From: Camelus dromedarius
Lineage: Eukaryota
NCBI RefSeq assembly: GCF_036321535.1
Contig: NC_087436.1
Span: 73,596,001 to 73,660,000 of the forward strand
Direction: 5' to 3'
DNA: 64,000 bases
Made by a program: the position numbers and the translations under genes. This document shows positions 10,397-61,724 of this stretch, piece after piece (the first letter of the stretch is position 1; each line of letters opens with the position of its first letter). The notes beneath the pieces were generated by a model. It worked only from the letters and a program-made list of their open reading frames with translations, did not search any database and had not been told where the DNA came from.

Positions 10397-11027
10397 TGTG
10401 TGGAGGAGGAAAACTTTTCCTGTACCCTCTTAGGTTTAGTGAATGGAGTCTGCAAATTTAACCGACAAAAGACAAACAGGAGAAAAAGAATACAAATTTA
10501 TTAATTTTTTTTATGTGCACAGGAGTTCACAGAAAAGTTAAAGAAGTGACTGGAGTGGGGGTGTAGCTCAGGGGTAGAGCACATGCTTAGCATGTACGAG
10601 GTCCTGGGTTTAATCCCCAGTACCTCCATTAGAAAAAAAAAAAAAAAAAAGTGGCTTGACATGGAGGCTCATATTCCGTTTTAACAAACGAAAGGGAATT
10701 TGAGATTCAAAGAATGATAAACTGTGGCAAAGTGACTAGAAAATTTATGAGAGAACTAGTGGAAGATAAGGGTTATTTTAGTAAAGTCCGTTTATGCAAA
10801 CTCATCTCAGCGTTGACTCCCAGTCTTTGGTGATAAGAGTGCTCTTCTCCTCTGGGTGCAGTGGTGGGGGGGCACCTTCCTACAGGGAAATTTATAGCCT
10901 GCTTTTAGGCAGATAAGGGGAAGGCAGAGAACTTTCCTGTAGCTGTTGATTCTCAATTGCCTCCAGCTCAAAATAATCCTTGTGTCAAATTGGCATATTG
11001 CAGGGTTGCACATCCTGATCCCTTTCA
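10397..11027 (-). mobile_element. ERV-type solo LTR
   Basis: TG...CA termini and ERV1-like body, interrupted by a SINE. Confidence 0.65.
10555..10650 (+). mobile_element. tRNA-derived SINE (camelid Vic-type) nested in an LTR
   Basis: gtagctcaggggtagagcacatgcttagcatgtacgaggtcctgggtttaatccccagtacctcc plus A tail; A and B boxes. Confidence 0.85.
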
Positions 11028-16374: not shown

Positions 16375-16835
16375 CTATGAACCAAGTAATTGTGTCCCCC
16401 TAAAATTCATATATTGAAACCCTAGCCCCCAGTGTGAGAGTACTGGAGGTGAGGACTTTGCAAAGTAATTAGATTATGAGGGTGGCACCCTCATGAATGA
16501 GATTGGTGATTTTTTTTTTTAATGGAGGTACTGGGGATTGAATCCAGAACCTCGTACATGCTAAGCATATGCTCTACCACTGAGCTATACCCTCCCCCCA
16601 ACCCCCTGGTGCTTTTATGAGAAGAGAAACTGAAGAGCTTGCTTCCTCTTTCTCTCCGCCATATGAGGATACAACAAGATGGTCATCTGCAAATCAGGAA
16701 GAGAGCCCTCACCAGGAATGGACTGGCCAGCACCTAGATCTTGGACTGCCCAGCCTCCAGCACTGTGAGAATCAATTGTTACTGTTTAAGCCACCCAGTC
16801 TATGGTGTTTTGTTATGGCAACCTGAGTAGATTAA
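16375..16835 (+). mobile_element. MLT1A-like LTR
   Basis: aaattcatatattgaaacc...tttaagccacccagtctatggtgttttgttatggca. Confidence 0.8.
16510..16600 (-). mobile_element. Vic-type SINE nested in a MaLR LTR
   Basis: Reverse complement of the same SINE consensus with a T tail. Confidence 0.85.
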
Positions 16836-18350: not shown

Positions 18351-20284
18351 ATGTACTTTAAAAATGACTGTTCCAAAGATAGCACTGCCAGTATTTGAAC
18401 CCTGCCCTGGCCTCGTTGTCACAAGTTCATTTTAACCCCTACTCTCAGACAAAGTGGCAAAGCCCCAGTAAGTCTGAAATTCCACCGCTGAACAGCTTTG
18501 CCAGTTACCCTCACAGATGATTTGCAAAGTAGATCTTTATCTTAAAAACACTATAGGTGTGTTTGACCAGAGGCAGGCCACACCAAGTATAAAAATTTGG
18601 ATGAATACCAAGAAAAATATTCTTGGCTATAAAAACTGGATAATTTGTATCTCAAAAGGCTTTGGTCTGACCTCATAAGTGGCCTCGGCTGAACATTCAT
18701 CCTCAATGCTCACCTACTCTCTCTTACCATTTTGTAAAAGTATCCAGTGGTTTGTTTAATAGTTGTGAAGAGTGCCAGAAGATGGATTTTTAATATTTTT
18801 AAAAGTATTTTACAATAACAAAGGCCTAACTCATCTGGTATTGGCAAATGTGACTTGGAAAAATCAATTCAGTGTATTTGTGGACCATACTGCTAGACAA
18901 TTTGGTCACATCCATATGTGTAATTAGAAAAGTGGGAGGTGGGGCGTTCTCAGCGGTATATATTTAAAACTCTGAAAATGTTCCACAAAATGCTAGAAGA
19001 GGAAAAAGGCCTTTCTACATCCCTCTCTCCTTCTTCCCTCCCTCTTCCTCTCATTTCCTGAATGAGGAAGATCTTATCCAGAAATTCCATCTGTCAGGCT
19101 CCTCTAAGATACAACTGATGAGAAAACAAAACCAAAATAAGCAGCGCTTAAGATCCTGAAAGTGATATTAATGTTCTGACTTTGTAAACATGGAAAACAT
19201 TATTATGATTTACTGAATGGATTCACAGGGTGGGTTTCTTGGCAACATCAGTTCAGTAATCTTTCATATTTGATCAACTGTTGTATGAAAGAGTAGGTAA
19301 AGCTTTCTCTAAATGGGGGAATACCCTTTGCCTGAAAGTACTCCTCTTTCTGAAACTCCACCAATACTAATTAAATCCTTTCTATTTAACTTTACTCTCT
19401 TTCAGGCATCCTCTAAAATTTCTATAAGAGTAGAGGTGTTTATAAAGCTGCTGTCCTCGAAGAAGAGAGGATACGGAATTAAAACTGGCCCTAAAAACCT
19501 GACATCTTTCAAATTATAGGGCAGCTCCTACTTCAGAAGACTTATCTCACAGCTGGAAAAATTTTTATACCCTGGTTATTCCTGTACTTTTGTGTTACAC
19601 TGTTCTTCAAGCAAAACTCTGAGTGGTTGCAGTCCTTGATGAGCGGTTTCTTTAGCGCAATGGTGTAAGTTTACTATACGAAGAAAAATAGAAATTTAAG
19701 AAATGTATTCTTGTAATATACCAAATAACCTCCTAAAGTGTTAGTTTTCCGAACAGCACACAGTAACTATAGTTTCAGATTAAAATTACATTATTTAAAC
19801 CAAACACCATTACAAGACTATCAGAGCAGGGAGCAGATTCAATTTGTTAGTTAAATTATAAAGCTAGAAGCAGATAAGAATGTGTTCCTGATTCCAGGAA
19901 AAGACATTCTACTCAAATTTCATCAAGGAAATTGGTGTGATCACCTGTATTGTTTCACCAGGCTGTTTTTAAATGACAAGGATCTATTTAAATAACTTAA
20001 GTGGTGGTTTTGGCTTCCAATAATTAAATACAATTAATGTTACAAAATAGACCGTTTAACTATTAAAGTGTTAAAAAGTGGTTATGAAGTAAAATCATCC
20101 CACAATGTTTCTGGCATGCCTGCAGACCAGGGTACTGTGGAAGGACTTCTGACTGGGAGAGATTTTAAGGATAAAGTCACAATTTAATTTAGATCTCAAT
20201 TTTTTTTTTTTTTCTAAAAAACCACACTGATCTGGGAGGTAACAAAAATGCATAGAAAAAAGTCTGGATAAAAGTGCCCCACCA

Positions 20285-20999: not shown

Positions 21000-23592
21000 G
21001 TACCCCACCATATGGTGATATTATGGATAGATTTTTTCTTTTTTTTTTAATTGACATATAGTTGATTTACAGTGTTGTGTGTTTTATGTTCTTTTATTAT
21101 TTCTGATTTGCCTACCATGAGCATGTCAAAATTTTATAATCAGGAAAAAATTAGTTTTTAAAGGATTTTAACTTAAAACACTTTTCTCATTCCTCTCGTT
21201 CAGTGGATCAGGAAGCACACACACATATTTTTAATTGTTTAGTAAAGCATCTCTACAGTCTGAAATAAAACTAAAAATTAGTCTCTCCATAAATCAGTTT
21301 TAAGGAAAAAAATGAAAATAATGAAAGGCAGTGGAAGGGACAGGATTTATGGTGGAAGTAAGCCTTCTTTCATCCCTTCCCCCAGGCCTCTAGTTTTCCA
21401 GTAAATTCATTTTTTCCCTGCTTTACACACATATACATGTGTGTATGTGTGTGTATGTGGGTGTGTGTGTACACACACAAATTTCAAACCATTCAGAGCT
21501 TCTTTATTCCCATATTCCAGAGATAATCCTTATTAACGTTTAGCTATATGCCATTCCAATCTGTTTCTATATCTCCAGTACAAAACATAGACAATATGTG
21601 TCTTTTAAAAATACACATGAGATCACACTTTAGACATTGTTCTGCCACCTACCTTTTCTCATGTGCCAGTGCACTAAACACAGTCCCCCTCCTCAGTACC
21701 TGTTACATGATATTCCACTGTATGCTTGCATCCCCGTGTTTGAGATGTCCCTGTTAGTGGATATTTAGATTGGTTTTTGCCATTACAAATAAATTCTGTG
21801 ATGAGCATCATAAACATTATTTGAAAGGTAGAAGAACAAACATCAGGATACAATGTTTTGTCTTTTTCCAGTAGAAAGAGTAGTGATGTATTCTTGCTAA
21901 CTGCCAAGGAAGGCTAATGTTCCAGTTTTACCTTGACAGAAATGTCCATATAGAAATTAAGACATTAAAAAATAACTTTATAGTGAATTTTAAACATCAA
22001 AAATAACTTCAAATAGGATGTGTAAATGGCATAAAATTATACTGCATATATTATTTAGCCCAAAGAAAGAAACATGCTCTCATCCTGCCGCAGTCAGTAA
22101 TGCCTGAAAAGCATAGGGCATCTTATCCTTATGAGGGTTGAGATATTCCATTCTTCAATTCATACTTTCAAAGTAAGATATAAAAGTGTGTCTCTGCACT
22201 CTTAGGAAATAAGGTTAACATAAACTAATTATCTGGATTACAGACTGTAAAAGTGTCAATATTTATTTACTTTAAAATTTGTTCTTGGAACATCTTTAAG
22301 TTGCACACTCCCAGGTTATCTTAACTGGAGCATACTAAGCACAATTTGCATTTTATTGATAACCTCAGGCCTCTATGAATGCCATCCGTCTACTGCAATA
22401 TTGTGATAGCCCCAGGAGGGTGTTTGGGGTTAGGTCCACTCACCCCTGCACTAAATGATCCTAAGCTGAATTTCAAAGTCCAATAACTTCTTGGTTTGTG
22501 ATGGAGGGAGAAAAAGGGATGTGATTGCGTTGTGTGTTTATCTGGTCTCCTGACAATTAGAACCTCTGGCTGTGGATTGACACAGAAATTGATGGGACAT
22601 AGTTGATGAACCTGTTAAGGCCCAGTAACCAAACTGAACTTGTCCATTAAGAGACTGTTTGACGAAGAGGAACAAAGAAAATGGATGAAATATTAGATTC
22701 AAAATGCAGTTGGTAGACAGGAGTCTTAAAATATCCAACCTCTGAGAGAGGGAGAGTTGGCTGTAGCCAAAAAGCAAAAAAAAAAAAAAAAAAAAAAAAC
22801 GAGTCCTTGATAGCAGAAAGACTGAAAATGTTATTTCCAAGTTCCATTCCAACTCTAATATTCTATGAGGCCATGATTGCATTTCCACTAAGAGGTCCCA
22901 GTTGCAACCACAGGCAGTCAAGACCCCAAAAGCTGTTTTCCTAAGATGGTAGTGGTGGTTAGAAGCAACTTAAAAGCAAAAAAGAAAGTGTCTGTGTATG
23001 TGGGGGAGAAGAAAATGAAGCATGACTACAAACAAGGAGAAAGCACACAATTACTGTAGCTCTTTTTCCTAGAGGAAATCACATCACTTGATAATATCAA
23101 TGCTTCATATTCAGCGCCATAGGTTAAAACAGATTAGGATGCCATTCTAAATAGTTATAATTTTTTTGAAGGAAGGAAAATCGTAGAAGGACATGTATAA
23201 ATACATATCAATAATTTACCTTTTACTTCATAAATATGAAGTGCCCAGTATACATGAATGGCAAAAGGATACAGATATTGAAGATGATTTGTGTGAAGAA
23301 CAGGAAATTGGAAAGATATTTCAATTGAGAGTTACATTGAAGTCTGATATTTTCTGGATTCCTGGGATTCTGGAAGGGGAAAAGCTAACTGTTAATACAT
23401 GGGTGTTGCCCTGACGTCCTCACATCATAAGAAAGTCATCCTCAGTGGCTGCTCCACCCTCACTGCTGCCTCTCTTTTTTCTCCATCCCTGCTCCTTCCT
23501 CCCTTCCTCTTCCTCTCATTTCCTGAATGAGGAAGATCTTACCCAGAAATTCCATCAGTCAGGCTCCTCTAAGATACCCAACTTGTGACATT

Positions 23593-27975: not shown

Positions 27976-28065
27976 ATAGCTCAGGGGTAGTGCGCATACT
28001 TAGCATGCATGAGGTCCTGCCTTCAGTCCCCAGTACCTTCATTAGAAAAATAAATAAATAAATAC
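27976..28065 (+). mobile_element. Vic-type SINE
   Basis: tatagctcaggggtag...cccagtacc plus (TAAA)n tail. Confidence 0.8.
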
Positions 28066-28451: not shown

Positions 28452-31400
28452 CTGGTAAAGAATTCTGTGGCTTTGTGTGTTTTCTAGACTAGTTGTCTTA
28501 CAAAACATGATGTCAGGTAGGGGAGCAAAGTCTGTCTTCAGGATTCGGTTTTGAGAGAATTGCTTACCCCTGGCTTTGCAGCCAACCACATGCCCCTCCT
28601 GCACATAATTATACAGAGGCTGGAGGGAGCGTGCACTTCAGAAGCTGGGTGAGCCCGCGGGTACGGTACACAGGTACACAGACGCACAGACCGTGAATTC
28701 CTCACTGTCAGAGAACCCCACAGAGACAGAACCAAATCTAGTAGACAAGAGACATTTGAAATGTTCTGTGTGTCAGTGTTATTCTTTTCAAAATAAAAAC
28801 CTACCGTTGTTGTCAGAGAAAAATGCAAGGCCCACGTCAAATTCTAATTAAATGAACCCAAGTTACATCCCATCTTCTGTGCTGGCCTTCGCCTCAGATA
28901 TCCCTTTGTTATTCAAAGATTTTTTTTTCCTTTACAAATATTTTATTAATTATAAAACATAATAGGGGTAAGAAAGATACATGAGTATCAGCATAACTTA
29001 CAAACGAAAAAACAGCATTTTGGTGTCATAATTTTCTATAACACAATAACTTGCTAATGTGATATCTTGATTAATCATTAGGATTTTCTATGCTCAATTT
29101 TCTGCAAATACATTTATTGGGTCATCAAATTTTATACTTTTAGTAACTTCATTTTTTTTTCTTATTAGGAGGTTCACTCGGGATTTTAAATGCCAAAAAA
29201 ATCTATCAAATCATTGTATATTTTTTATATTTGATAAAACATATTATTTGCTGATATATGTTTCTATTAATTAATATGACTTTGTAGCTACTGCAAAGTG
29301 TTAGACCTGTCATTTCTTTATTTTATTTTATTTTTTATTGAGGTATAGTTGATTTACTGTTATTCAGAGATTTACAATCAAAATGGTGTTAATGGTAAAA
29401 ATTCTTCCGCTTCAAGAGGTGAGCAATACTTGCTTCTCATTTCCTATGTTGCTTCCTATAAATGCCAGAAAAACACACAGCTCCAGTGTTACACTTGGTG
29501 GGCACACAGAAATGTACCAGAAAGTGGACACACACACAGGCCGCAAGGGAAGTTCTTCCAACAGATTTCTAGAGCGCAAACTTGTATCCTGCACACATGT
29601 ACAATACACTTACATGTACTTCAGTCCCATATTCCTGCTGCAAAACCTATTTAGCTATTGCATGTGTTCTTTTAATACCCTACTAGCTTCAGTTCATAAC
29701 GATTTTATAGATTTCGTGAAGAGTTTTGCATTCATATTTGTAAGTGAGATCAATCTGTGAGATTATTATGTCTTTGGTTTCGGCAAGAGATTTTCAACCT
29801 TTGTGAAATGACTAAGAATCTTCCCCACTTTCTCTGTGCTAACTTACATTGGTATTAAACACATATGTTTCCTTACATTTTCCTAGTCAGATGTGGCTAT
29901 CCTCAAAGGACATTCAGGTCTGCCGGGCTTGTGTGAGGACTGTAGTACTAATGCTATTCTTAACCTGCTTGAGCTGCAAGAGAGTGGAAGACAGTCACCT
30001 CCTTGCCCTGAGGCAGACTGTCTTAGACAAAAATTTTGATGACTAGGCCAATAACAGTGACAGTCTTGTGAAATAATTAAACTCACCTTGTAAGACTGAG
30101 GGCTCTTTAACAGCTCTGTTACTTGTTGAAGAAAGCACCACTGGTCACAAATTTGAAAATGGCACTTTGGATGTAAGAGTTGTTGGTGGTAACAGCACAG
30201 AGTATAGACATCATGTTTTTCCCTTACATGCGTGCTTCCCAACCAGATTTCCAGGTATCTTAACTTTTATTTCACAAAACAAAATGTAAATATTTTGCTT
30301 ATAGATTACATCTACATATATGTACATGTTCTGTAGATGTATTTACGTGTAATACGTATTTTTACATTATATTTCTTTCTTTGGAGGAGATAGTCTGTAA
30401 AAAATCAAACCGGTAGACTGTCAAAGGTCAGATTTCGGGAATAGTGGCAGCCACATCACAGAGTCCCCTCCCATCTCGCCTCAATATTTGTCTCTCCCCA
30501 CCTCAGACACCTTGCGTTCTCAGTTATGGCTTGTTAATCTTTAATAAGATTTTAAAAACAGCATTATTTCTTCCTGTTTTAAAAAAATACAAATCTGGCT
30601 AATTTATTTTGGCCAAGGAGAGAATACCAGAAGAGTCCTGGTTCTAGTGTGGTCTCGGAGAACAGGTAAACTTGGAAACTCCAATTCTAATTCACAGTGA
30701 AAAGAGGAGGAGAGGATGGGGAAGACCGATAATACTTATGATGTGGACGTGGCAATGTGAATTATTAACCATTGCCTGAGACACGATGTGCTCTTTTCGG
30801 AGTCTAATATGGGTCTAGGAGGGCTCAGGAGTTTCTGCAGGATGGATTCTCCAGCAGTCTTGTTCCAGATTTCAACGGCCCCGTGAAAAAGGAAATGCGT
30901 GTCCCTGTGCTTGTAGTGTTGAGCACCGGAGGGTTTATCAAAATACAACTTATTCTTGCTTGCGAGGGGAAACACTGATCAGGAAGCTGGTTTCCAGCGT
31001 TGGAGGACCATCAACTTCAGCGACTTCTCCAAATGTCTGTGTGGAGGAGGGGGCGCTGCGTGAGCTTTGCCCCCGTTTGCTCGGTTCAAAGTTAGAATTA
31101 TTGTTTATGCAACCAACCTTTCAGGTTAAGAGAGATCATTTGCCACATATTTGAAATAGAGCATGTTTTGTAGTTGTGCGCGAAGCTTTAAACGGACAGC
31201 CTATTTTTATCACTACAAGCACTGGATTTGCAAGCGTAGTTCTGTCAGACTTCGTCTTTTCAGACTTGCTCTTTTAAGTTACGTGAAGAGCGACTTGCTG
31301 AACTGCGCCAGATAGCACAGCAACGTCATTCGCTCCAAACCCTTGAAGGAAGGCGCTAATTTATGTTGTTTGTCTTTAAATCTGTTGAGCGTCTTAACCT

Positions 31401-31464
31401 AAGTCTTACTGGAACTGCACGGCTAACAATATAGGAAAAGGAGGAATTAAATGAGGTAACAAAA

Positions 31465-31505
31465 GGGGTGGGGAATATGTAGATGAGTGCAGTGACTGCT
31501 GGTCA
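31465..31505 (+). promoter_or_regulatory. U1 distal sequence element (GT box, octamer ATGTAGAT, SPH-like site)
   Basis: GGGGTGGGG at 31465-31473; ATGTAGAT at 31477-31484 (-219 to -212, the octamer variant of human U1); TGCAGTGACTGCTGGTCA at 31488-31505 resembles a reverse ZNF143/Staf site. Confidence 0.75.
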
Positions 31506-31633
31506 TGCCCGCGCTACACATACATTTCCTAAGATTTTGGCAACCTTCAGATATAAAAATATTGCTACATGAAAATATCGCTTGGCAACTCTTTATTCCA
31601 GAAATAAGGGTGTCTAGAGGCTACATAAGAAAA

Positions 31634-31653
31634 GTGATCCTATGTTAAGAGTG
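31634..31653 (+). promoter_or_regulatory. U1 proximal sequence element (SNAPc site)
   Basis: GTGATCCTATGTTAAGAGTG at -62 to -43, similar in sequence and position to the human U1 PSE (GTGACCGTGTGTGTAAAGAGTG). Confidence 0.75.
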
Positions 31654-31695
31654 ACTTGAATTCGATGGTTAGGTGCCGGGGAAAAACGTCAACTC

Positions 31696-31859
31696 ATACT
31701 TACCTGGCAGGGGAGATACCATGATCACGAAGGTGGTTTTCCCAGGGCGAGGCTCACCCATTGCACTGCGGGTGTGCTGACCCCTGCGATTTCCCCAAAT
31801 GTGGGAAACTCGACTGTATAATTTGTGGTAGTGGGGGACTGCGTTCGCGCTCTCCCCTG
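31696..31859 (+). ncRNA. RNU1: U1 snRNA, full-length 164-nt variant
   Basis: ATACTTACCTGGCAGGGGAGATACCATGATCACGAAGG...AATTTGTGG (Sm site)...GCGTTCGCGCTCTCCCCTG. Intact 5' splice-site recognition end, U1-70K loop and AUUGCAC U1A loop; no polyA tail. Confidence 0.98.
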
Positions 31860-31869
31860 ATTTTATGTT

Positions 31870-31882
31870 GTTTAATATAAGA
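31870..31882 (+). terminator. snRNA 3' box
   Basis: GTTTAATATAAGA starts 11 nt past the U1 3' end; one mismatch to GTTT-N0-3-AAARNNAGA. Confidence 0.7.
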
Positions 31883-32039
31883 AAAGTTCTATATGCTTTG
31901 TTAGTAGGTTTGTTCTGGCTTGTGAGATAGCTTACTCGATTCAGGTTTTTGTGATTGTGGTTTTTTTTTAGACGGATTTTGTGATTTTACGAAATCTGAA
32001 TGGGTAATTGTTATTTCGTAGTACTTGTGCATTTGCTTT

Positions 32040-32594
32040 ACAATGTTTTTAAAACTTCAGTATAGTTGGTATACGGTAGTCTGCTGCAGGTGTGTATGTA
32101 TAATACAGTGATTTATAATTTTAAAGATTGTATATGTTGTTTATAGTTACAAAATATTGGCTGTGTTCCCTGGGTTGTGCAATACATCCGTGTAGTTTAT
32201 AAACTTTAAAAAAAAATTTTTATTGTTATATTTATTTTATAATGTGTTAAATTCCACTGTAGAGCATAATTATGCAGTTATACATAACCATACATATATT
32301 CATTGTCACCGCCCCTACACCCGGGCTGTGAGCTACCACAAGATCTTGTATACATTTCCCTGTGCTATACCGTATAATCTTGTTTATCTATTCTACATTT
32401 TGAAATCCCCCTGTCCCTTCCCACGCCCCTCCCCCTTGGCAATTTTGTAGCTTGTATTATACCTGTTAGTTTATACCTTTTAATCTGCTTCCCACTCCCT
32501 ACTGGTAACCACTAGTTTCTTTTCTACATCTGAGTCTCTTTTGTTATATTCACTACCTCTGTTGTATGTTTTAGATTCCACATGTAGTTGATAT
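32040..32594 (-). mobile_element. Nested L1 3' UTR fragments
   Basis: ttccctgtgctatac and ttagattccacatgt L1 3' hallmarks in reverse. Confidence 0.7.
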
Positions 32595-33008
32595 TGTTAC
32601 GGAAACGACAGGCCAGTCAAGAAACAAGCACCACTCGGAGGGTTGGAGTACTCAGATGTATTACGCCAGTGGGCTCAGAGGGTCTTCTGCTCCGAAGCTC
32701 TGAGCACCTCCAAGACATGCGCATGAGGTTTTATAGGGTAAAGTACAAGCTTGGGGTATTTGGCCAATAGGCATAGAACAGCTTTAGCAGCATTATCATT
32801 ACAAAAGTGGAGGTGGGGAGGCAGGAAACCAACATTCCAAAGCCAGATATGTATCTTTGAAAATCCAGCTGGCTAGCAAAAACACATAAACAGCAAACCA
32901 ACACTAATTAATTTAGATTTACAAGTTAGTCCAGCACAACTCAGATCAGTATTCCAATACTTAGACTTGTTAGTTATCTTGTTAGACCAGCCCAGCTTTT
33001 CCTTCACA
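32595..33008 (-). mobile_element. Young ERV1-like solo LTR
   Basis: TG...CA termini with a perfect 4-bp TSD atat; CpGs retained. Confidence 0.8.
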
Positions 33009-34404
33009 ATATCAACTGTATTTCAATTAAAAAGCAACCAACCAACGCACCCATGAGAACTGAACATTTTTCCAAAAGAGGAAATGCAGATGGCCAGCAG
33101 GAACATCAACATCACTAATATCAGGGAAATGCATATCAAAATCATGATATCTCGCACCTGTCAGAATGGCCATCATCAAAAACACAAATAACAAATGTTG
33201 GCAAGGATATGGAGAAAAGGGAACTTTTGTCTCTCCATCTCAACTCTTAAATCACACCTACCAAGTTTTTTTCCCACCAAGTAACACACAGGTTCCAGAG
33301 ATTGGGATGTGGACATTTTTCGTGGGCCATTATTCAGCGTACTACATCAGTAAAACCTGCAGAAAAATGTGGCATGAGCTATGGAATGACGTCACTAAAA
33401 GGGGCTTGAAATATGTAAATGAGCACAGTGTCTGCTAGCCTTGTTCCCATCGTACATGTATCTATGATTTTTGCAAATATTCTGGGATCCAAAATATTCT
33501 CTGGATTTTACAGTTTGAAGAAGTCTTTCTTTTTGTAAGTGATAGTCTAGAGCTTGCCTTGAAGAAAGTTACCATATGTGTGGAGTGTTGGAAATATGAA
33601 GGTAAGCAGTGGCAGGCAGTACTCGACCAAGATGACTGGTAGCACACGCGGGTGGGTGTGTTAAAAGAGGAGTATCGGAAGAGCATCTAAGCCTAACCTA
33701 CGCTAAAAGTACTGGTTAAAAGTTGAAGGCTTGCAAGAAATGGGTTTGTTCATCTGGGTGCTTGAAAAAACACGTAGCAGGTTTTTCAACAGGTGCGAGT
33801 GCTGCAGGGTTAACTCTCAAGAATAACCCTTCATCAAGTCAATGTTTGATCGATGCATGAACCTTTAAGGACAGATAAAGGCAATGGCTTCCAAGAGTGG
33901 GTCCTGATAGTGCTATTGAGCCTCCTCCAAAGCGTCAATGTCTGAATCAGAACCCGGTTCCTCTCACTTAGATGATCCTGCTGGTGTACTGTCAGAAGGT
34001 TTAAAGGAGCCTCACATCTCATGGCTTACCTACCTGCCACACATCGGCTGCCTCACCAGCTCGGCACTATAGGCGCCAGACAGCCGTTGTCACATCGTCA
34101 TGCTAAGGTTATCAAGACAGAAGAACCAGGGTTCTGGTGAGTGTTAGCACTGTGTGTGTGTGTGAGAGAGAGAGGGAATGAGTTTATATTTTCTCTGTTT
34201 ATAATTATATTTTGTGTGTACTTGTATTTTAAATATTCTGTGTTTTATTCTTTGTGTCTCTCTTTCAGTTCACTAAACAAAAGCATCTGTAAGATTTGAA
34301 AGAAAGAAAATGTTATTTTGTTGCTGACATGTATTAGGCCAATGATGGTTGCCTCTGTACTGAATATGTATAGACTTTTTAAAAAACACCTTTATTGTGA
34401 TATA

Positions 34405-34646: not shown

Positions 34647-37600
34647 CTTCTGAGAATCTATGCAGAGTCACAGTTCTTAAACCTGGCTACATATTAGAAC
34701 CATCCCAGGCATTTTAAAAATGCTGATGCTCTTGTTCCTCCCACCATCAAAAATGTCAGTTCAGTTGGTCTGAGGTGGGACTTTGGTGTATTTAAGGTCC
34801 ACAGATGATTTTAAAGTAGAGCCAGGGCTGGAAAGTTCTGGGTAGTCATTTCTATCCAGGACCCAGGAAAATCAGCTGTCAAGATGCATGTAACATACCC
34901 TTTATTAGCCATGTAAATATTTGCATTACCAAGTCCTCTATTTGTTCTCAGTGTTTTGATCATGAAACTGTAATTCACAGCCCCAAAGGCATCTGCTATA
35001 CTGTCAGATATATTTTATTATTTTTAACAGCCCCCTCCCAGGAATAGCAAACACTGTTTCAAAGGAGTGAGAATCTCATGAGGACTGAAATCCAAGCTGT
35101 CTTGTTCTCTTCTGTTTCCCCAGTGCCTGGAACCAAAGTGATACTTAAGATTATTAAGTAGGGGTATGAACAGAGGATGTTAAGACCATATATTTGTCAA
35201 CTGAACTCAAATATATTTAATGGTAGAATCAAGATTAGAAATATCTGTGTGTGAGAATGCTGAGCTGGGTCTAATCACTTAAGTGATGACCACCTCGCCA
35301 AGTCTGGCAGAGACTGCAGGCTGCATACCCCTCCCCGATATTCTTATTCCTTTCTTCCTTTGTCGTAAAACCCCAGATTCTTAGCCAGGCATATGACCTA
35401 CCAGAGAAAAAGAGATTCAGTTTCCTAGATCCCTTTGCATTTTCCTGGTATCTCTTAAAATGGTGATAATGATGAAAAATGACATTCCACTTGGGAATAA
35501 GATAATGATATAAACATTTTTAATGAAGCATTGCCGTTTTATCCAGGATACTGAAAAGGGTACACCATGGTAAAAGAAGCAGAGGAATTGTGTCTTTGAT
35601 TATCAGCTGTGGTGTTAAACAGTGCCTGGGGGAAGAAGCTGTGTTTGGCTGTGAAGTTCCTGCAGAACTTCATGAATCATGAATCTCCCCGCCTGTTGGG
35701 GGTGAAAGGGCCTGATGGGTTAGGAGTCAAAGGAGGAGCCATTTCTGTTACGGGTGGGAAAGATGGCATGGGGATGATGGTGGTCCGTCTGTTCATTGGT
35801 TGTTTCCTCTGATAAAACAAAAATCAGGACATGCATGACTGGGACATTGTGCTGTACACCAGAGATTGACACATTGTAATTAACCGTACTTCAATTAAAA
35901 AAAAAAATCAAGACAAAAATAATTTATAACTGGTCAACATATAAATATTATATAGCTATTACTTGCATAAGAAAAATATTTTTAAGTTTATATAGGTAAG
36001 GGGAGCATTTTCAATTATTACCATATATATATTTTTTAGTTTTACTAACTGATTATCAACTTCCTCTAGTTCTCTGTATGTAAATGACAGCTAATCCATG
36101 AAATTTCAAATCTTTGTATTTGATCTTTAAAAAGAAAATCAAGTACTCCCTTCCCATACTCGTTGTTCCAGCCAATCCTTTTGGGAGGAACAATCAGAAG
36201 AGTTGGATCCCTTAAAAATTTTAAGCATAGTTGTGAGGGTAGCAGAGTTCTAAGAAAGTGAGGCTTTAAGGACTCAAGATTGTGGGGAGGCAAGAATCTC
36301 AGGGAGACATTTGGCTGTAACCCTCTCAAGGCAATTGGCGAGCCTGGAAGTTGTGTCTGAAAAAGGCTAAGAAGCAGAGCAGAACTTCTGACAAACTCAC
36401 AGGGCTGGGGGATAAAAATTAAAGTTCAGGAGCTGCCAGAGAGGAGATTGCTAAGTGACCCCCAAAGGCCTCACCCTGGGAGTCAGAGTGAACCAGGGGA
36501 CTTGTTCTAATCATCTCAGTCTCCAGATGGATCCAGGTGGTCTGTGAACGTTGTGCCCACCACCCATGTGCCCAAGAGAAACAAAAGGAAATCCTCTCCA
36601 GAGGAAGACAGCTTCATCCAGAACCTCACGTTGTCTCTGCAGTTTTCACAAGCAATGTTCACTGCTCACTCAAAAACAACTAGGCTAAAAAAAAGGATCC
36701 AAAGGAAGTGGTAGGGAATGAGACTCAACGGACAATGAAAAGGAAAAGTAGATCACAGATGCAGACCCTCAGGAGATCCAAGTAATGGAGCTACCAGACA
36801 CCGACTTTAAAATAACTGTGATCAAAACGGTCAAGGAATTAAAAGATAAGATGTTGACTTTGGCATCAAATGGACATTTTAGAACTGAAAAATAGAAGGA
36901 AATAGAATAATTTTAAGAAATTATGAGTTCTTAAATAATTTTCTCTTACATATATTTTTAGATATAAATATATATGTATATTTTTAAAGTTGAAGTTCCT
37001 TCTTAGATATTTTTAAAAGGAAACGTCATGGAAATTTGAAATTATTGGTTAATAACAATCTTCAACATTTTCAAGAAATTATAATTCTTTTCAAACAGAT
37101 TCACAAGTTCTAGTTCTCCTATTAATTAAAAATTTTGTACTCATATTCATACCTGTGAGAGATAATCACTATTAACATTTTAGTAAACTATATACACTTC
37201 TAGTTTTTAAAATTAGTTTATGAATATAAATATTTTTAGAAAATTATTTGCCTAAAAAGTAGGTTTCTATTCCTTTATATTTAATAGTTATTATAAATAG
37301 TTCCTATGTCATTAAGGTTTTTAGAACAAGATTTTGAAAGGCTAAATAATATTCCACTGTATAGCTATATCATAATTTCTTTAACTATTATACTATTGTT
37401 AAAATTTTATTTCTGTTTTTTAGTATTTTAAATAATAAAGTAAACGTCTGACCATAGGAAAAACACCCAACAATTCTGTTAGCCAATATTATGATGACGA
37501 AACTCTCAAATGTGATTTTATATTTCTGATGTCTTTCCTTTTATTTTCCTGAACCTTCATTCTTCTTTCAAGTGTTGATATAGATAGAAAAAATCAAGAA

Positions 37601-39079: not shown

Positions 39080-39172
39080 GGGGAGGGTATATCTCAGTGT
39101 TAGAGTGCATGCTTAGTATGCACAGGGTCCTGGGCTCAATCCATAGCACCTCCATTAAAAATAAATAAATAT
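39080..39172 (+). mobile_element. Vic-type SINE
   Basis: ggggagggtatatctcagtg...acctccattaaaaataaataaat. Confidence 0.8.
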
Positions 39173-39324
39173 AAACTTAATTACCTCCCAAAAAAAGTTC
39201 TAAAAAATTAAAAATTTTAAAATGTGAAATTAAAAAAATTTCTTTACAGAATAAGCAAATGAATCTTGCATGTGTTAACATCAGTCACTAATCCTTTTCA
39301 ATACCAAAAATATGATCTCAGATA

Positions 39325-41139: not shown

Positions 41140-41236
41140 ATGTATTTGTTTATTTTTGGAGGTGGTGCTGGGGGTTGAACCCAGGAGCTGGCGCATGCTG
41201 AGCATGCGCTCTACCACTGAGCTATACCCTCCCCCT
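41140..41236 (-). mobile_element. Vic-type SINE
   Basis: Reverse copy ending ctctaccactgagctataccctcccc. Confidence 0.85.
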
Positions 41237-48920: not shown

Positions 48921-49854
48921 CCATCTGCAAGTTCTGGGGCCCCATCCTAGGTGATTCTAATTCAGCATTTTTTACAAATCTGGTATTTGTCCAGGTTTGG
49001 GGAACCCTGCTTAGAATATGCTTTAAATCTATGTAGGAGAATGGATTTAAAGAACGTAAGTCACATAGATAAAACTTCATCTTTGGAGATCTCATTTTTC
49101 TAAAGCATGTCCAAACAAATACTCCTTCTGACAGGAGAGCATAAAGGTAACAAAATGGCCCGGAAGTCCAGAAACCACATTTTAATCCATACTCATTTTA
49201 AGTGAATTTGGTAAATGTGTTATCACTTTGCCAAGTTCTGCTATGTTTGCTATCTACATTGTGGGGCAGTTCATCCCAAACTTATCTCTCAGATAAAAAG
49301 ATGAATTTTTGAAATTCTCTTATAGTTAAAATCCTTTTCATTTCAAAATTCAAAGCATGCAGCCAGTATTTGGTGAGACTTTCCTATGAATGGGGCTCAA
49401 CAAAACCTCCTTCCCTCTGGGTCCTTTCCTAGCGGCTGGGTCAGCAGTCCAGCAAGGTGCCAACTGGCCCTTGGTTCTGTGCTCTCACCAAGGAGCAAGT
49501 GATTATCACTCTTGGGGTAAAGACACAACATGCTTACAATTTCACCAGAACTCCTGCTTCGCTCAGACACACAAGTGTTCCCTTTTTGTCATTAAAGATG
49601 GGAAATCTTACGTTTTGGGATGATCATAGCGCCAGCCTCTTTGTCTCCAGTCATAATTTTTGCTGTGATTAAGGGCAAAACAAAAGTGAAACCCTCTAAG
49701 GTGGAGGTTTTCAACATGGCTGCACATTAGACTTTTTAAAATAATTAATTCCCAGTTTCCATACCCCAGACATTCTGATTCAATTGATCCAGAATGGGGC
49801 CCAGGCATCAATTTTTTTTTAAAACAAAAAAATGTTTTTGAGGGGGTGCATAGA

Positions 49855-50095
49855 GGGGAAGGGTATAGCACATGCTTAGCATCCACGAGGTCCTGAGTTC
49901 AATCCCCAGTATCTTCATTAAAAGGAAGAAAAAAGTTTTTTTTTTAATTGTAGTAAAATGTACATAACCTAAAATTTGACATTTTAACCACATCTAAAAG
50001 TACAGTTTTGGGGAAGGTATAGCTCAGTGGTAGAACACATGCTTAGCATGCATGAGGTCCTGGGTTCAATCCTCAGTACCTCCATTAAAAAAACA
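49855..50095 (+). mobile_element. Two Vic-type SINEs (49855-49935 with internal deletion; 50009-50095)
   Basis: Both carry atgcttagcat...gaggtcctg.gttcaatcc.cagta. Confidence 0.8.
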
Positions 50096-61051: not shown

Positions 61052-61305
61052 TTAGTGTGCGCCTGGGCTGCTGCAGGCACTGCTGTTGGTGTTTGTGGTT
61101 CGTGGGCAGTCTGAGGCATCGCCCTCTGAACAGGACTGCTCCACAAGGCGGAAGGCCTCCAGGAACTCATTGATGTCAATGTGGCCATCCTTGTTGAAGT
61201 CAATGCTCCGGGCAAGGTCGCAGATGCAGTCATCTGTGATGTCAATGTTCATATGAGAGCTGAACAGCTTCCAAGTCTGCCTGAACTCGTCCAGTGAGAT
61301 GAACC
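61052..61305 (-). CDS. PPEF2: PPEF2 last coding exon (C-terminal EF-hands)
   Basis: Acceptor ctctctctggtaag|GG, then (G)FISLDEFRQTWKLFSSHMNIDITDDCICDLARSIDFNKDGHIDINEFLEAFRLVEQSCSEGDASDCPRTTNTNSSACSSPGAH*. Contains EF-hand loop DFNKDGHIDINE and matches the PPEF2 C-terminus as I recall it. Confidence 0.95.
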
Positions 61306-61724
61306 CTTACCAGAGAGAGCAAGTCACTTAGTCTAGTTTTCAGTGCTCGTTTCCTCTGACATTCTTGCAAGGACACCTGGTTGCAAACAAAGACACCCAG
61401 GGCCTAGTATCCACTTTAAACTCCCAAGAGGATAGTGCAAAATCACTACATCACCAGTGGTCCTCAGCTGGGAGCAAGTTTGCTCTTCTAGGGACGTTTG
61501 TAAATGTTTCGAGACATTTTTGATTGTCATGGGGGAGGGGGGAGGGTGTTACTGGCATCTAGTAGGTAAAGGGCAGGGATGCTACTAAACATCCTAAAAT
61601 GTACGGGATGGGCCCCCAAACAAAGAATTGCTCAAGCCAAAATGTCAGCAGTGCCACTGCTGAGAAGCCCTGCATTAAATCATCCCAAACATATGCTAAT
61701 TTATTCTGCTTATAAAAAGCCTTT

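What the first reader, a model, noticed from the sequence alone, without database searches (positions are those of the whole stretch)
31465..31882. Solitary, apparently functional U1 snRNA gene
Seen: a full 164-nt U1 with octamer DSE at -219, an SPH-like site, PSE at -62 to -43 and a 3' box at +11. There is no A tail or evident TSD, and CpGs are retained over ~30.8-31.9 kb. Established: most dispersed U1 copies are promoterless retrocopies, while true genes carry these elements. Inference: an active single U1 gene, either ancient at this locus or moved in as DNA with its flanks.
Basis: partly seen in the sequence, partly recalled or inferred. Interest (0 to 1): 0.7.

Follow-up and report, generated by a model that had tools for sequence, protein, structure and literature searches.

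The report
U1 gene in decayed tandem cluster
This is a real and probably working gene for the U1 splicing RNA in a mammal, but it is not alone: it is the intact middle copy between a broken U1 copy and an old copy of its promoter that no longer leads into U1 sequence, which is mostly ordinary gene birth and death.

Summary
The U1 at 31696-31859 is intact (Rfam 172 bits). Its distal octamer sits at -219, exactly as in human RNU1 genes. A 3' box follows, there is no A tail or target-site duplication, and CpG retention is the highest in the window. The PSE and SPH matches are weak on their own.

"Solitary" is wrong. A heavily deleted U1 relic with its own 3' box lies 744 nt upstream on the same strand (nhmmer E 7e-6). 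An old copy of the U1 promoter lies 1.9 kb downstream (180 of 260 identical, z 14.7), conserved mainly at the DSE and PSE, with no recognisable U1 body behind it. Contigs from public runs point to at least one sister of the relic elsewhere in the genome.

Best reading: an active Pol II/SNAPc U1 gene kept by selection in an old DNA-duplicated mini-cluster. Activity is inferred; no locus-specific U1 expression was tested. Whether the cluster arose here or moved in is open. It is a new member of a known kind. The open lead is what, if anything, the third promoter transcribes.

The parts
31696..31859 (+). U1 snRNA coding region, intact
   Evidence: Rfam RF00003 172.4 bits; 6 differences from the human and 6 from the mouse reference printed in bioRxiv 10.1101/2021.08.01.454689, counted by eye
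31477..31484 (+). DSE octamer, U1-type variant, -219
   Evidence: exact match; same motif and position in human RNU1 genes
31488..31506 (-). SPH/Staf-like site, weak; lies in the block conserved with the duplicate promoter
   Evidence: 5 mismatches, not above chance; block -220..-191 is 23 of 30 identical to the duplicate
31635..31651 (+). PSE, -61..-45
   Evidence: 4 mismatches to the published consensus; block -70..-41 is 19 of 30 identical to the duplicate, against 16 of 41 and 18 of 42 on either side
31870..31882 (+). 3' box, +11
30952..31075 (+). U1 relic ('U1L'): 5' arm changed at 3 of 11 positions, U1A loop and much of stem-loop II deleted, Sm site half deleted
   Evidence: 119 of 162 aligned bases identical, 0 of 200 shuffles reach the score; nhmmer E 7.4e-6 with a fish-only profile; site comparison; pairs
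31084..31096 (+). 3' box of the relic, +9
   Evidence: 1 mismatch to the published consensus; 22 of 63,980 positions do as well
33339..33619 (+). duplicate of the U1 promoter ('unit 3'): octamer-like 33413-33420, PSE-like 33569-33585
   Evidence: 180 of 260 identical, z 14.7, 0 of 200 shuffles; tile score 131 against 64.5 for the best unrelated tile of 630; octamer-to-PSE spacing 156 vs 158
33620..34142 (+). sequence behind the unit 3 promoter: no U1 similarity; 3'-box-like site near 33714 (2 mismatches), a better match at 34107 (1 mismatch), donor-like site at 34137
   Evidence: not significant against U1 or the relic; no Rfam family near its cut-off; motifs
30801..31900 (.). CpG-retaining region covering relic, spacer and U1
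   Evidence: 38 CpG, o/e 0.69, G+C 0.45
32217..33224 (.). interspersed-repeat fragments (L1-like by my reading) between U1 and unit 3: 32217-32398 and 33106-33224
   Evidence: 69-81% matches to repeats elsewhere in the window

Best explanation
An active U1 snRNA gene that is the surviving member of an old, DNA-duplicated three-unit cluster. Mechanism, from established snRNA biology and inferred for this copy: Oct-1 binds the octamer at -219 and stabilises SNAPc on the PSE at -61; Pol II starts at 31696; Integrator cuts upstream of the 3' box; the RNA gets its Sm ring and trimethyl cap and acts as an ordinary U1 snRNP, a minor sequence variant with unchanged functional sites. Shown: intact body, elements in register, CpG retention, and two related units on the same strand. 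Inferred: the units arose by tandem DNA duplication long ago, the upstream body decayed, the downstream unit lost or replaced its body while its DSE and PSE were kept by selection for a long time, and purifying selection kept the middle copy intact.
For: Rfam full-length match with no non-standard pair. 5' splice-site arm, U1-70K loop, U1A core and Sm site are intact (site lines). The six differences from human U1 (60, 62, 73, 77, 122, 157; by eye) include a two-sided change at pair 62-77 and none is a CpG transition; the body keeps 8 CpG. Octamer identical in letters, strand and position to human RNU1. Upstream CAACT invariant in 8 of 8 aligned rows. No TSD or A tail. Highest CpG o/e in the window. 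Neighbours differ from it at 27% (relic) and 31% (promoter copy) of aligned sites while the body is within 4% of human U1. Promoter-pair identity is 64 of 91 in the DSE and PSE blocks against 68 of 163 in the spacers, p 9e-6 (block edges chosen after I had seen an alignment).
Against: PSE and SPH matches are individually not above chance. The relic's upstream region is not significantly like either promoter (z -0.8 to 1.3), and none of 4 flank-versus-flank tests was significant, so the tandem unit's edges are not shown. The human ChIP table lists no SNAPc-bound locus in this interval (its only chr4 row is an unoccupied U1 at 137 Mb; interval position recalled). Gene conversion could keep a dead body intact.
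Confidence: 0.75

Rival explanations
1. A silent or nearly silent class I-type copy: recently inactivated, or kept looking intact by gene conversion from active U1 genes elsewhere.
For: PSE has 4 mismatches and no convincing SPH site. Human variant U1 genes with promoters are expressed at 0.001-0.15% of canonical U1 or less (PMC10870369 passages). No direct expression data here.
Against: Exact octamer at -219, CpG retention in the unique flanks that conversion of the body would not protect, and footprint-like conservation of DSE and PSE.
Confidence: 0.13
2. On origin only (compatible with activity): the whole cluster, already old, was moved into this interval as a DNA block in a non-human lineage, rather than being ancestral here and lost in humans.
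For: No SNAPc-bound locus here in the human table. Contigs point to dispersed sisters of the relic's 3' end (2 RNA-type runs, 2 studies) and of its far upstream flank (1 DNA-type run), so pieces of this unit have been duplicated as DNA.
Against: No junction or TSD was identified. Repeat fragments inside the cluster are 69-81% like other copies in the window, so it has been collecting insertions for a long time, wherever it lay. No orthologous locus could be fetched.
Confidence: 0.4
3. The relic and/or unit 3 are themselves working Pol II snRNA-type genes: a short Sm-less U1-derived RNA, and a non-U1 RNA from a U1-type promoter.
For: Relic keeps a near-perfect 3' box, lies in the CpG-retaining zone and can fold into several hairpins. 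Near-identical contigs over 30810-31403 in 3 of 3 RNA-type runs laid. Unit 3 keeps octamer and PSE at the right spacing. Human 'Unknown-1' is SNAPc-bound and has a U1-type octamer and Z motif but no annotated snRNA.
Against: Relic folds no better than shuffles (z -0.82); of 46 U1 pairs it keeps 11, breaks 10 and lacks 25 (alignment-dependent); it has no significant promoter. The RNA contigs are depth 2-4, start upstream of the relic's +1, were selected for holding this stretch, have no strand and may be DNA. Unit 3's promoter has CpG o/e 0.31; its expression was not tested.
Confidence: 0.15
4. An L1-mediated U1 retrocopy that landed near promoter-like sequence by chance.
For: Most dispersed U1 copies are of this kind (PMC3561869 passages); L1-like fragments are nearby.
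Against: No A tail or TSD; non-transcribed upstream bases shared with fish-type U1 genes; exact U1-type octamer at -219 (chance about 0.001 within 21 positions); 3' box present.
Confidence: 0.01

Closest known systems
Human RNU1 genes (1p36, 1q21, chr14) and SNAPc-bound U1-like-10/-11 on chr17 (Faresse 2012, PMC3499247)
   Same: 164-nt U1, ATGTAGAT octamer at about -219, PSE, 3' box, no TATA-like site at -35..-20; true U1 genes at several dispersed loci; full-length and shortened U1-like genes near each other (144 and 165 nt on chr17).
   Different: Different genomic interval, with no bound locus listed there in human; six base differences; weaker SPH match; units spaced 0.7 and 1.9 kb rather than tens of kb.
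Class I U1 pseudogenes / variant U1 genes such as vU1.8 (O'Reilly 2013, PMC3561869)
   Same: DNA-duplicated copies with flank homology; vU1.8 also lost part of the U1A site, as the relic has.
   Different: vU1 genes keep the Sm motif and recognisable promoters; the relic has lost half its Sm site and has no significant promoter similarity.
Human 'Unknown-1' SNAPc-bound locus (PMC3499247)
   Same: U1-type octamer and Z motif without an annotated snRNA, near a U1 gene; unit 3 looks analogous.
   Different: Unknown-1 is shown to be occupied by SNAPc and Pol II; unit 3 is untested, and orthology is not claimed.
Class II/III U1 retropseudogenes
   Same: Dispersed, away from the known clusters.
   Different: This copy has promoter, 3' box and conserved non-transcribed flank, and no A tail or TSD.

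Membership tests
Bona fide U1 snRNA gene | Full-length U1 sequence and structure | tested here: met
   Rfam 172.4 bits, model 1-166, no non-standard pair
Bona fide U1 snRNA gene | Intact 5' arm, U1-70K loop, U1A core, Sm site | tested here: met
   site lines; by eye
Bona fide U1 snRNA gene | DSE octamer near -220 | tested here: met
   exact U1-type octamer at -219
Bona fide U1 snRNA gene | SPH/ZNF143 site in the DSE | tested here: inconclusive
   best matches have 5 mismatches, as expected by chance; not the human RNU1 Z motif by eye
Bona fide U1 snRNA gene | PSE near -60, no TATA box | tested here: inconclusive
   4 mismatches, weak alone; block conserved in the duplicate promoter; human PSE alignment (Fig. 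S5.doc) could not be read
Bona fide U1 snRNA gene | 3' box 5-20 nt downstream | tested here: met
   +11; 3 mismatches to one consensus, 1 to a recalled one
Bona fide U1 snRNA gene | SNAPc/Pol II occupancy and a capped, Sm-bound transcript from this locus | not testable with these tools
U1 retropseudogene | A tail, TSD, no flank homology | tested here: not met
Variant U1 snRNA gene (for the relic) | Sm site retained | tested here: not met
   5' half of the site deleted in the alignment
Variant U1 snRNA gene (for the relic) | DSE and PSE retained | tested here: not met
   PSE 4-5 mismatches off position, octamer 2 mismatches; no significant promoter alignment
Variant U1 snRNA gene (for the relic) | 3' box | tested here: met
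   1 mismatch at +9
SNAPc-type Pol II promoter (for unit 3) | Octamer and PSE at U1 spacing | tested here: met
   spacing 156 vs 158; octamer variant also seen in bound human promoters
SNAPc-type Pol II promoter (for unit 3) | Occupancy and a transcript | not tested

The most novel reading that the evidence does not exclude
The cluster is a place where U1 duplicates were re-purposed: unit 3 is a still-active U1-type promoter that now drives an undescribed non-U1 RNA (about 85 nt to the first 3'-box-like site, or a longer spliced RNA using the donor-like site at 34137), and the relic belongs to a small dispersed family of shortened, Sm-less U1-derived RNAs with their own 3' boxes.
Probability: 0.15. 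Interest if true: 0.6.

Novelty: new member of a known kind. Interest (0 to 1): 0.3.

Why it matters
If right, it adds a U1 locus outside the intervals known from human and shows U1 birth and death in one 3-kb stretch: a dead body, a live gene and an orphaned promoter. Unique flanks and six diagnostic bases make it one of the U1 copies whose output can be measured separately. The orphan promoter would matter more if it is still used, because it would show how snRNA promoters give rise to new non-coding RNAs.

Tried and rejected
No whole genome is held, so other U1 loci of this genome could not be counted. A pattern for octamer plus U1 start found 0 metagenome loci; the U1 start found 8 loci there, all fish-type by my reading, 0 in viral contigs and 0 in prokaryote genomes; 0 plasmid matches. 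So no mammalian promoter or ortholog was available for alignment. Rfam in E-value mode does not recognise the relic or anything behind unit 3 (two weak unrelated hits). Whole-U1 MFE folding was uninformative (z -1.82, not the known fold). Relic promoter versus either promoter, 4 flank comparisons and unit 3 body versus U1 or relic were all non-significant. The pair counts are invalid (I mis-copied the structure line); redid them, and one pair still fails in all eight rows, a copying artefact. In one search the three RNA-type runs show no own-locus cover at 30270-30809 or 31404-31695, and the DNA-type run lacks its own-locus contig; holes prove nothing because a filter drops records. The 35-nt match at 30281-30315 and the 45-nt A+T-rich match at 30550-30594 are probably chance. 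Run X20's share (0.12) turned out to be spacer, not relic. Earlier findings of the scan: none by sequence or place, none by two word sets; 8 shown of 195 for 'U1 snRNA' concern other genomes. PMC12106830, PMC5786027 and PMC3278928 passages added nothing.

Full report
Setting. The window is mammalian by its repeats: tRNA-headed SINEs and L1-like fragments. I think it is a camelid, but that is recalled and untested. A last exon with EF hands lies at 61055-61306 on the minus strand; its best solved-structure match is the phosphatase rdgC (E 8e-7), so it is PPEF-family; 'PPEF2' is recalled. I found no USO1 coding exon; bases 1-900 look like a 3' UTR end by eye. No whole genome is held. The stretch 30850-31300 is held in full by 14 of 24 listed runs, from two organism labels, and in part by a third label, so it is not an assembly artefact.

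The observation. U1 is at 31696-31859, full length, 172.4 bits, no non-standard pair. By eye it differs from the human reference printed in bioRxiv 10.1101/2021.08.01.454689 at six positions (60, 62, 73, 77, 122, 157). Positions 62 and 77 change together and keep their pair; 60 and 122 swap Watson-Crick and G-U pairs; 73 is in the loop beyond the U1A core. The octamer ATGTAGAT is exact at -219 (7 matches in 127,986 positions). Human RNU1 genes have it at -218 to -220 in 6 of 11 listed rows, one more at -235 (Fig. S9 of PMC3499247). The PSE at -61 has 4 mismatches to the consensus in PMC5493778, and the SPH candidates are no better than chance. The 3' box at +11 has 3 mismatches to that paper's consensus and 1 to a recalled longer one. 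There is no TSD or A tail. CpG o/e upstream is 0.70, above all 611 other tiles (best 0.49).

DNA-level origin. A metagenome scan with the U1 start gave 8 loci, fish-type by my reading of their U1 variants. I aligned 6 of them, leaving out L004 and L006, which end inside U1. The five bases CAACT at -6..-2 are invariant in all 8 rows, including this gene and the relic described next. A retrocopy would not carry untranscribed bases.

It is not solitary. (1) A weak second hit led to a U1 relic at 30952-31075, same strand, 744 nt upstream. It has 119 of 162 aligned bases identical, score 89.5 against 30 +/- 5.6, 0 of 200 shuffles, and E 7.4e-6 with a profile built from the fish-type loci only. It has lost the U1A loop's 3' part, much of stem-loop II and half the Sm site, and has 3 changes in the 5' arm. 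It keeps 11 of 46 U1 pairs. Its 3' box at +9 has 1 mismatch. Its upstream DNA is not significantly like a U1 promoter. Rfam does not call it. (2) A copy of the U1 promoter lies at 33339-33619: 180 of 260 identical in a gapped local alignment, z 14.7. In a global alignment identity is 64 of 91 in the DSE and PSE blocks and 68 of 163 in the spacers (p 9e-6; edges chosen after seeing an alignment). Octamer-to-PSE spacing is 156 against 158. This footprint supports the PSE assignment and implies long selection on both promoters. What follows unit 3 is not like U1 or the relic and matches no Rfam family. Repeat fragments lie between U1 and unit 3. A two-sequence promoter profile found no further copy in the window. 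None of 4 flank comparisons was significant, so 'tandem triplication' is inferred from order, strand and homology of parts, not from mapped unit edges.

Public runs. I laid 4 of the 24 listed runs on 30270-31695; all are contigs. The three RNA-type runs gave near-identical contigs of depth 2-4 within 30810-31403. This is a weak hint only: the runs were picked for holding that stretch, contigs have no strand, DNA can be in them, and the contigs over the relic begin upstream of its +1. Read-through from the relic, antisense transcription from the U1 promoter and contamination all fit. More useful are foreign contigs. In X16 and X18 (two studies) a contig matches 31080-31113, the relic's 3' box, with 3 differences, and its loose 5' end shares relic-specific letters of the terminal hairpin (by eye). 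In X11 a contig matches 30531-30610 with 12 differences and a gap, and both loose ends still resemble the window (by eye). So the relic unit has at least one sister elsewhere, made by DNA duplication.

Mechanism. Shown: anatomy and homologies above. From established biology (PMC5493778, PMC3499247 passages): Oct-1 at the DSE, SNAPc at the PSE, Pol II, Integrator cleavage directed by the 3' box. Inferred: the middle gene is active and selected, because its body is within 4% of human U1 with 8 CpG kept, while its neighbours differ by 27-31% or more. I put this at 0.75. A silent copy kept by conversion (0.13), active side units (0.15) and a retrocopy (0.01) are the rivals. On origin, the human ChIP table lists bound U1 or U1-like genes on chr1, chr14 and chr17 and none in this interval (the interval's position is recalled; one cell line). 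The cluster was therefore either lost in humans or moved in elsewhere; I cannot decide.

Comparison and novelty. It works like, and on every sequence test that gave a clear answer is, a bona fide dispersed U1 gene. The relic resembles class I copies such as vU1.8 but fails the Sm and promoter tests. Unit 3 resembles human 'Unknown-1'. Eight literature searches returned no paper on a U1 gene at this locus; the library lacks most subscription papers, and genome annotations may well list it.

What I read: passages of PMC5493778, PMC3561869, PMC10870369, PMC8457000, PMC8190147, the preprint (76), PMC12106830, PMC5786027 and PMC3278928; passages (33, 56, 64), Table S1 and Figs S9, S10 of PMC3499247. 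Its PSE and 3' box alignments, the promoter alignments of PMC3561869, the variant table of PMC10870369 and the figures of PMC8457000 could not be read; they bear on how weak the PSE is and on whether human has a U1 relic here. Kyriakopoulou 2006 is not held; Bernstein 1985 and Denison and Weiner 1982 I saw only as citations.

Verdict. Real, probably active, not solitary, known in kind. Interest 0.3; the orphan promoter is the part worth following.

Noticed in passing
window 33339-34142 (+): Old copy of the U1 promoter with octamer and PSE at U1 spacing, followed by non-U1 sequence with mildly raised CpG (o/e 0.49), 3'-box-like sites and a splice-donor-like site at 34137.
   Followed up: partly
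window 30952-31096 (+): Deleted U1 relic with a near-perfect 3' box; contigs point to a sister copy elsewhere in the genome that turns up in two RNA-type runs.
   Followed up: partly
window 30900-31300: ACTACA occurs 3 times in 30800-31695 against 0.5 expected; I recall it as a ZNF143-associated promoter motif. An octamer-like site (1 mismatch) lies at 31226 and a PSE-like site (3 mismatches) at 31271, both on the minus strand. The spacer 31100-31440 has the highest CpG o/e of the parts measured (0.90).
   Followed up: no
window 30490-30645: A low-copy paralog at about 80-85% identity is seen in one DNA-type run (record 2); nature unknown.
   Followed up: no
window 900-61000 (interval before the PPEF-type exon): In mouse and human the USO1-PPEF2 interval holds the lncRNAs U90926 and AC110615.1 (PMC8190147 passage); whether unit 3 relates to them was not tested.
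   Followed up: no
window 19027-19112 and 23492-23577: Two 95% identical 86-nt copies 4465 nt apart (family D14), possibly the two ends of an LTR-type element or a local duplication.
   Followed up: no
window 10557-10628, 16523-16594, 27977-28062, 39090-39175, 41160-41231, 49853-49938, 50013-50084: tRNA-Ala-headed SINE copies with A-rich tails; four of them are called as tRNA by Rfam and ARAGORN.
   Followed up: no
L004/L005 (one contig): A fish-type U1 in a tandem repeat with a period of about 2.56 kb and an internal 111-nt repeat.
   Followed up: no
window 35461-35533 (+): Weak SNORD79 match (28 bits against a cut-off of 47, E 0.15), probably chance.
   Followed up: no
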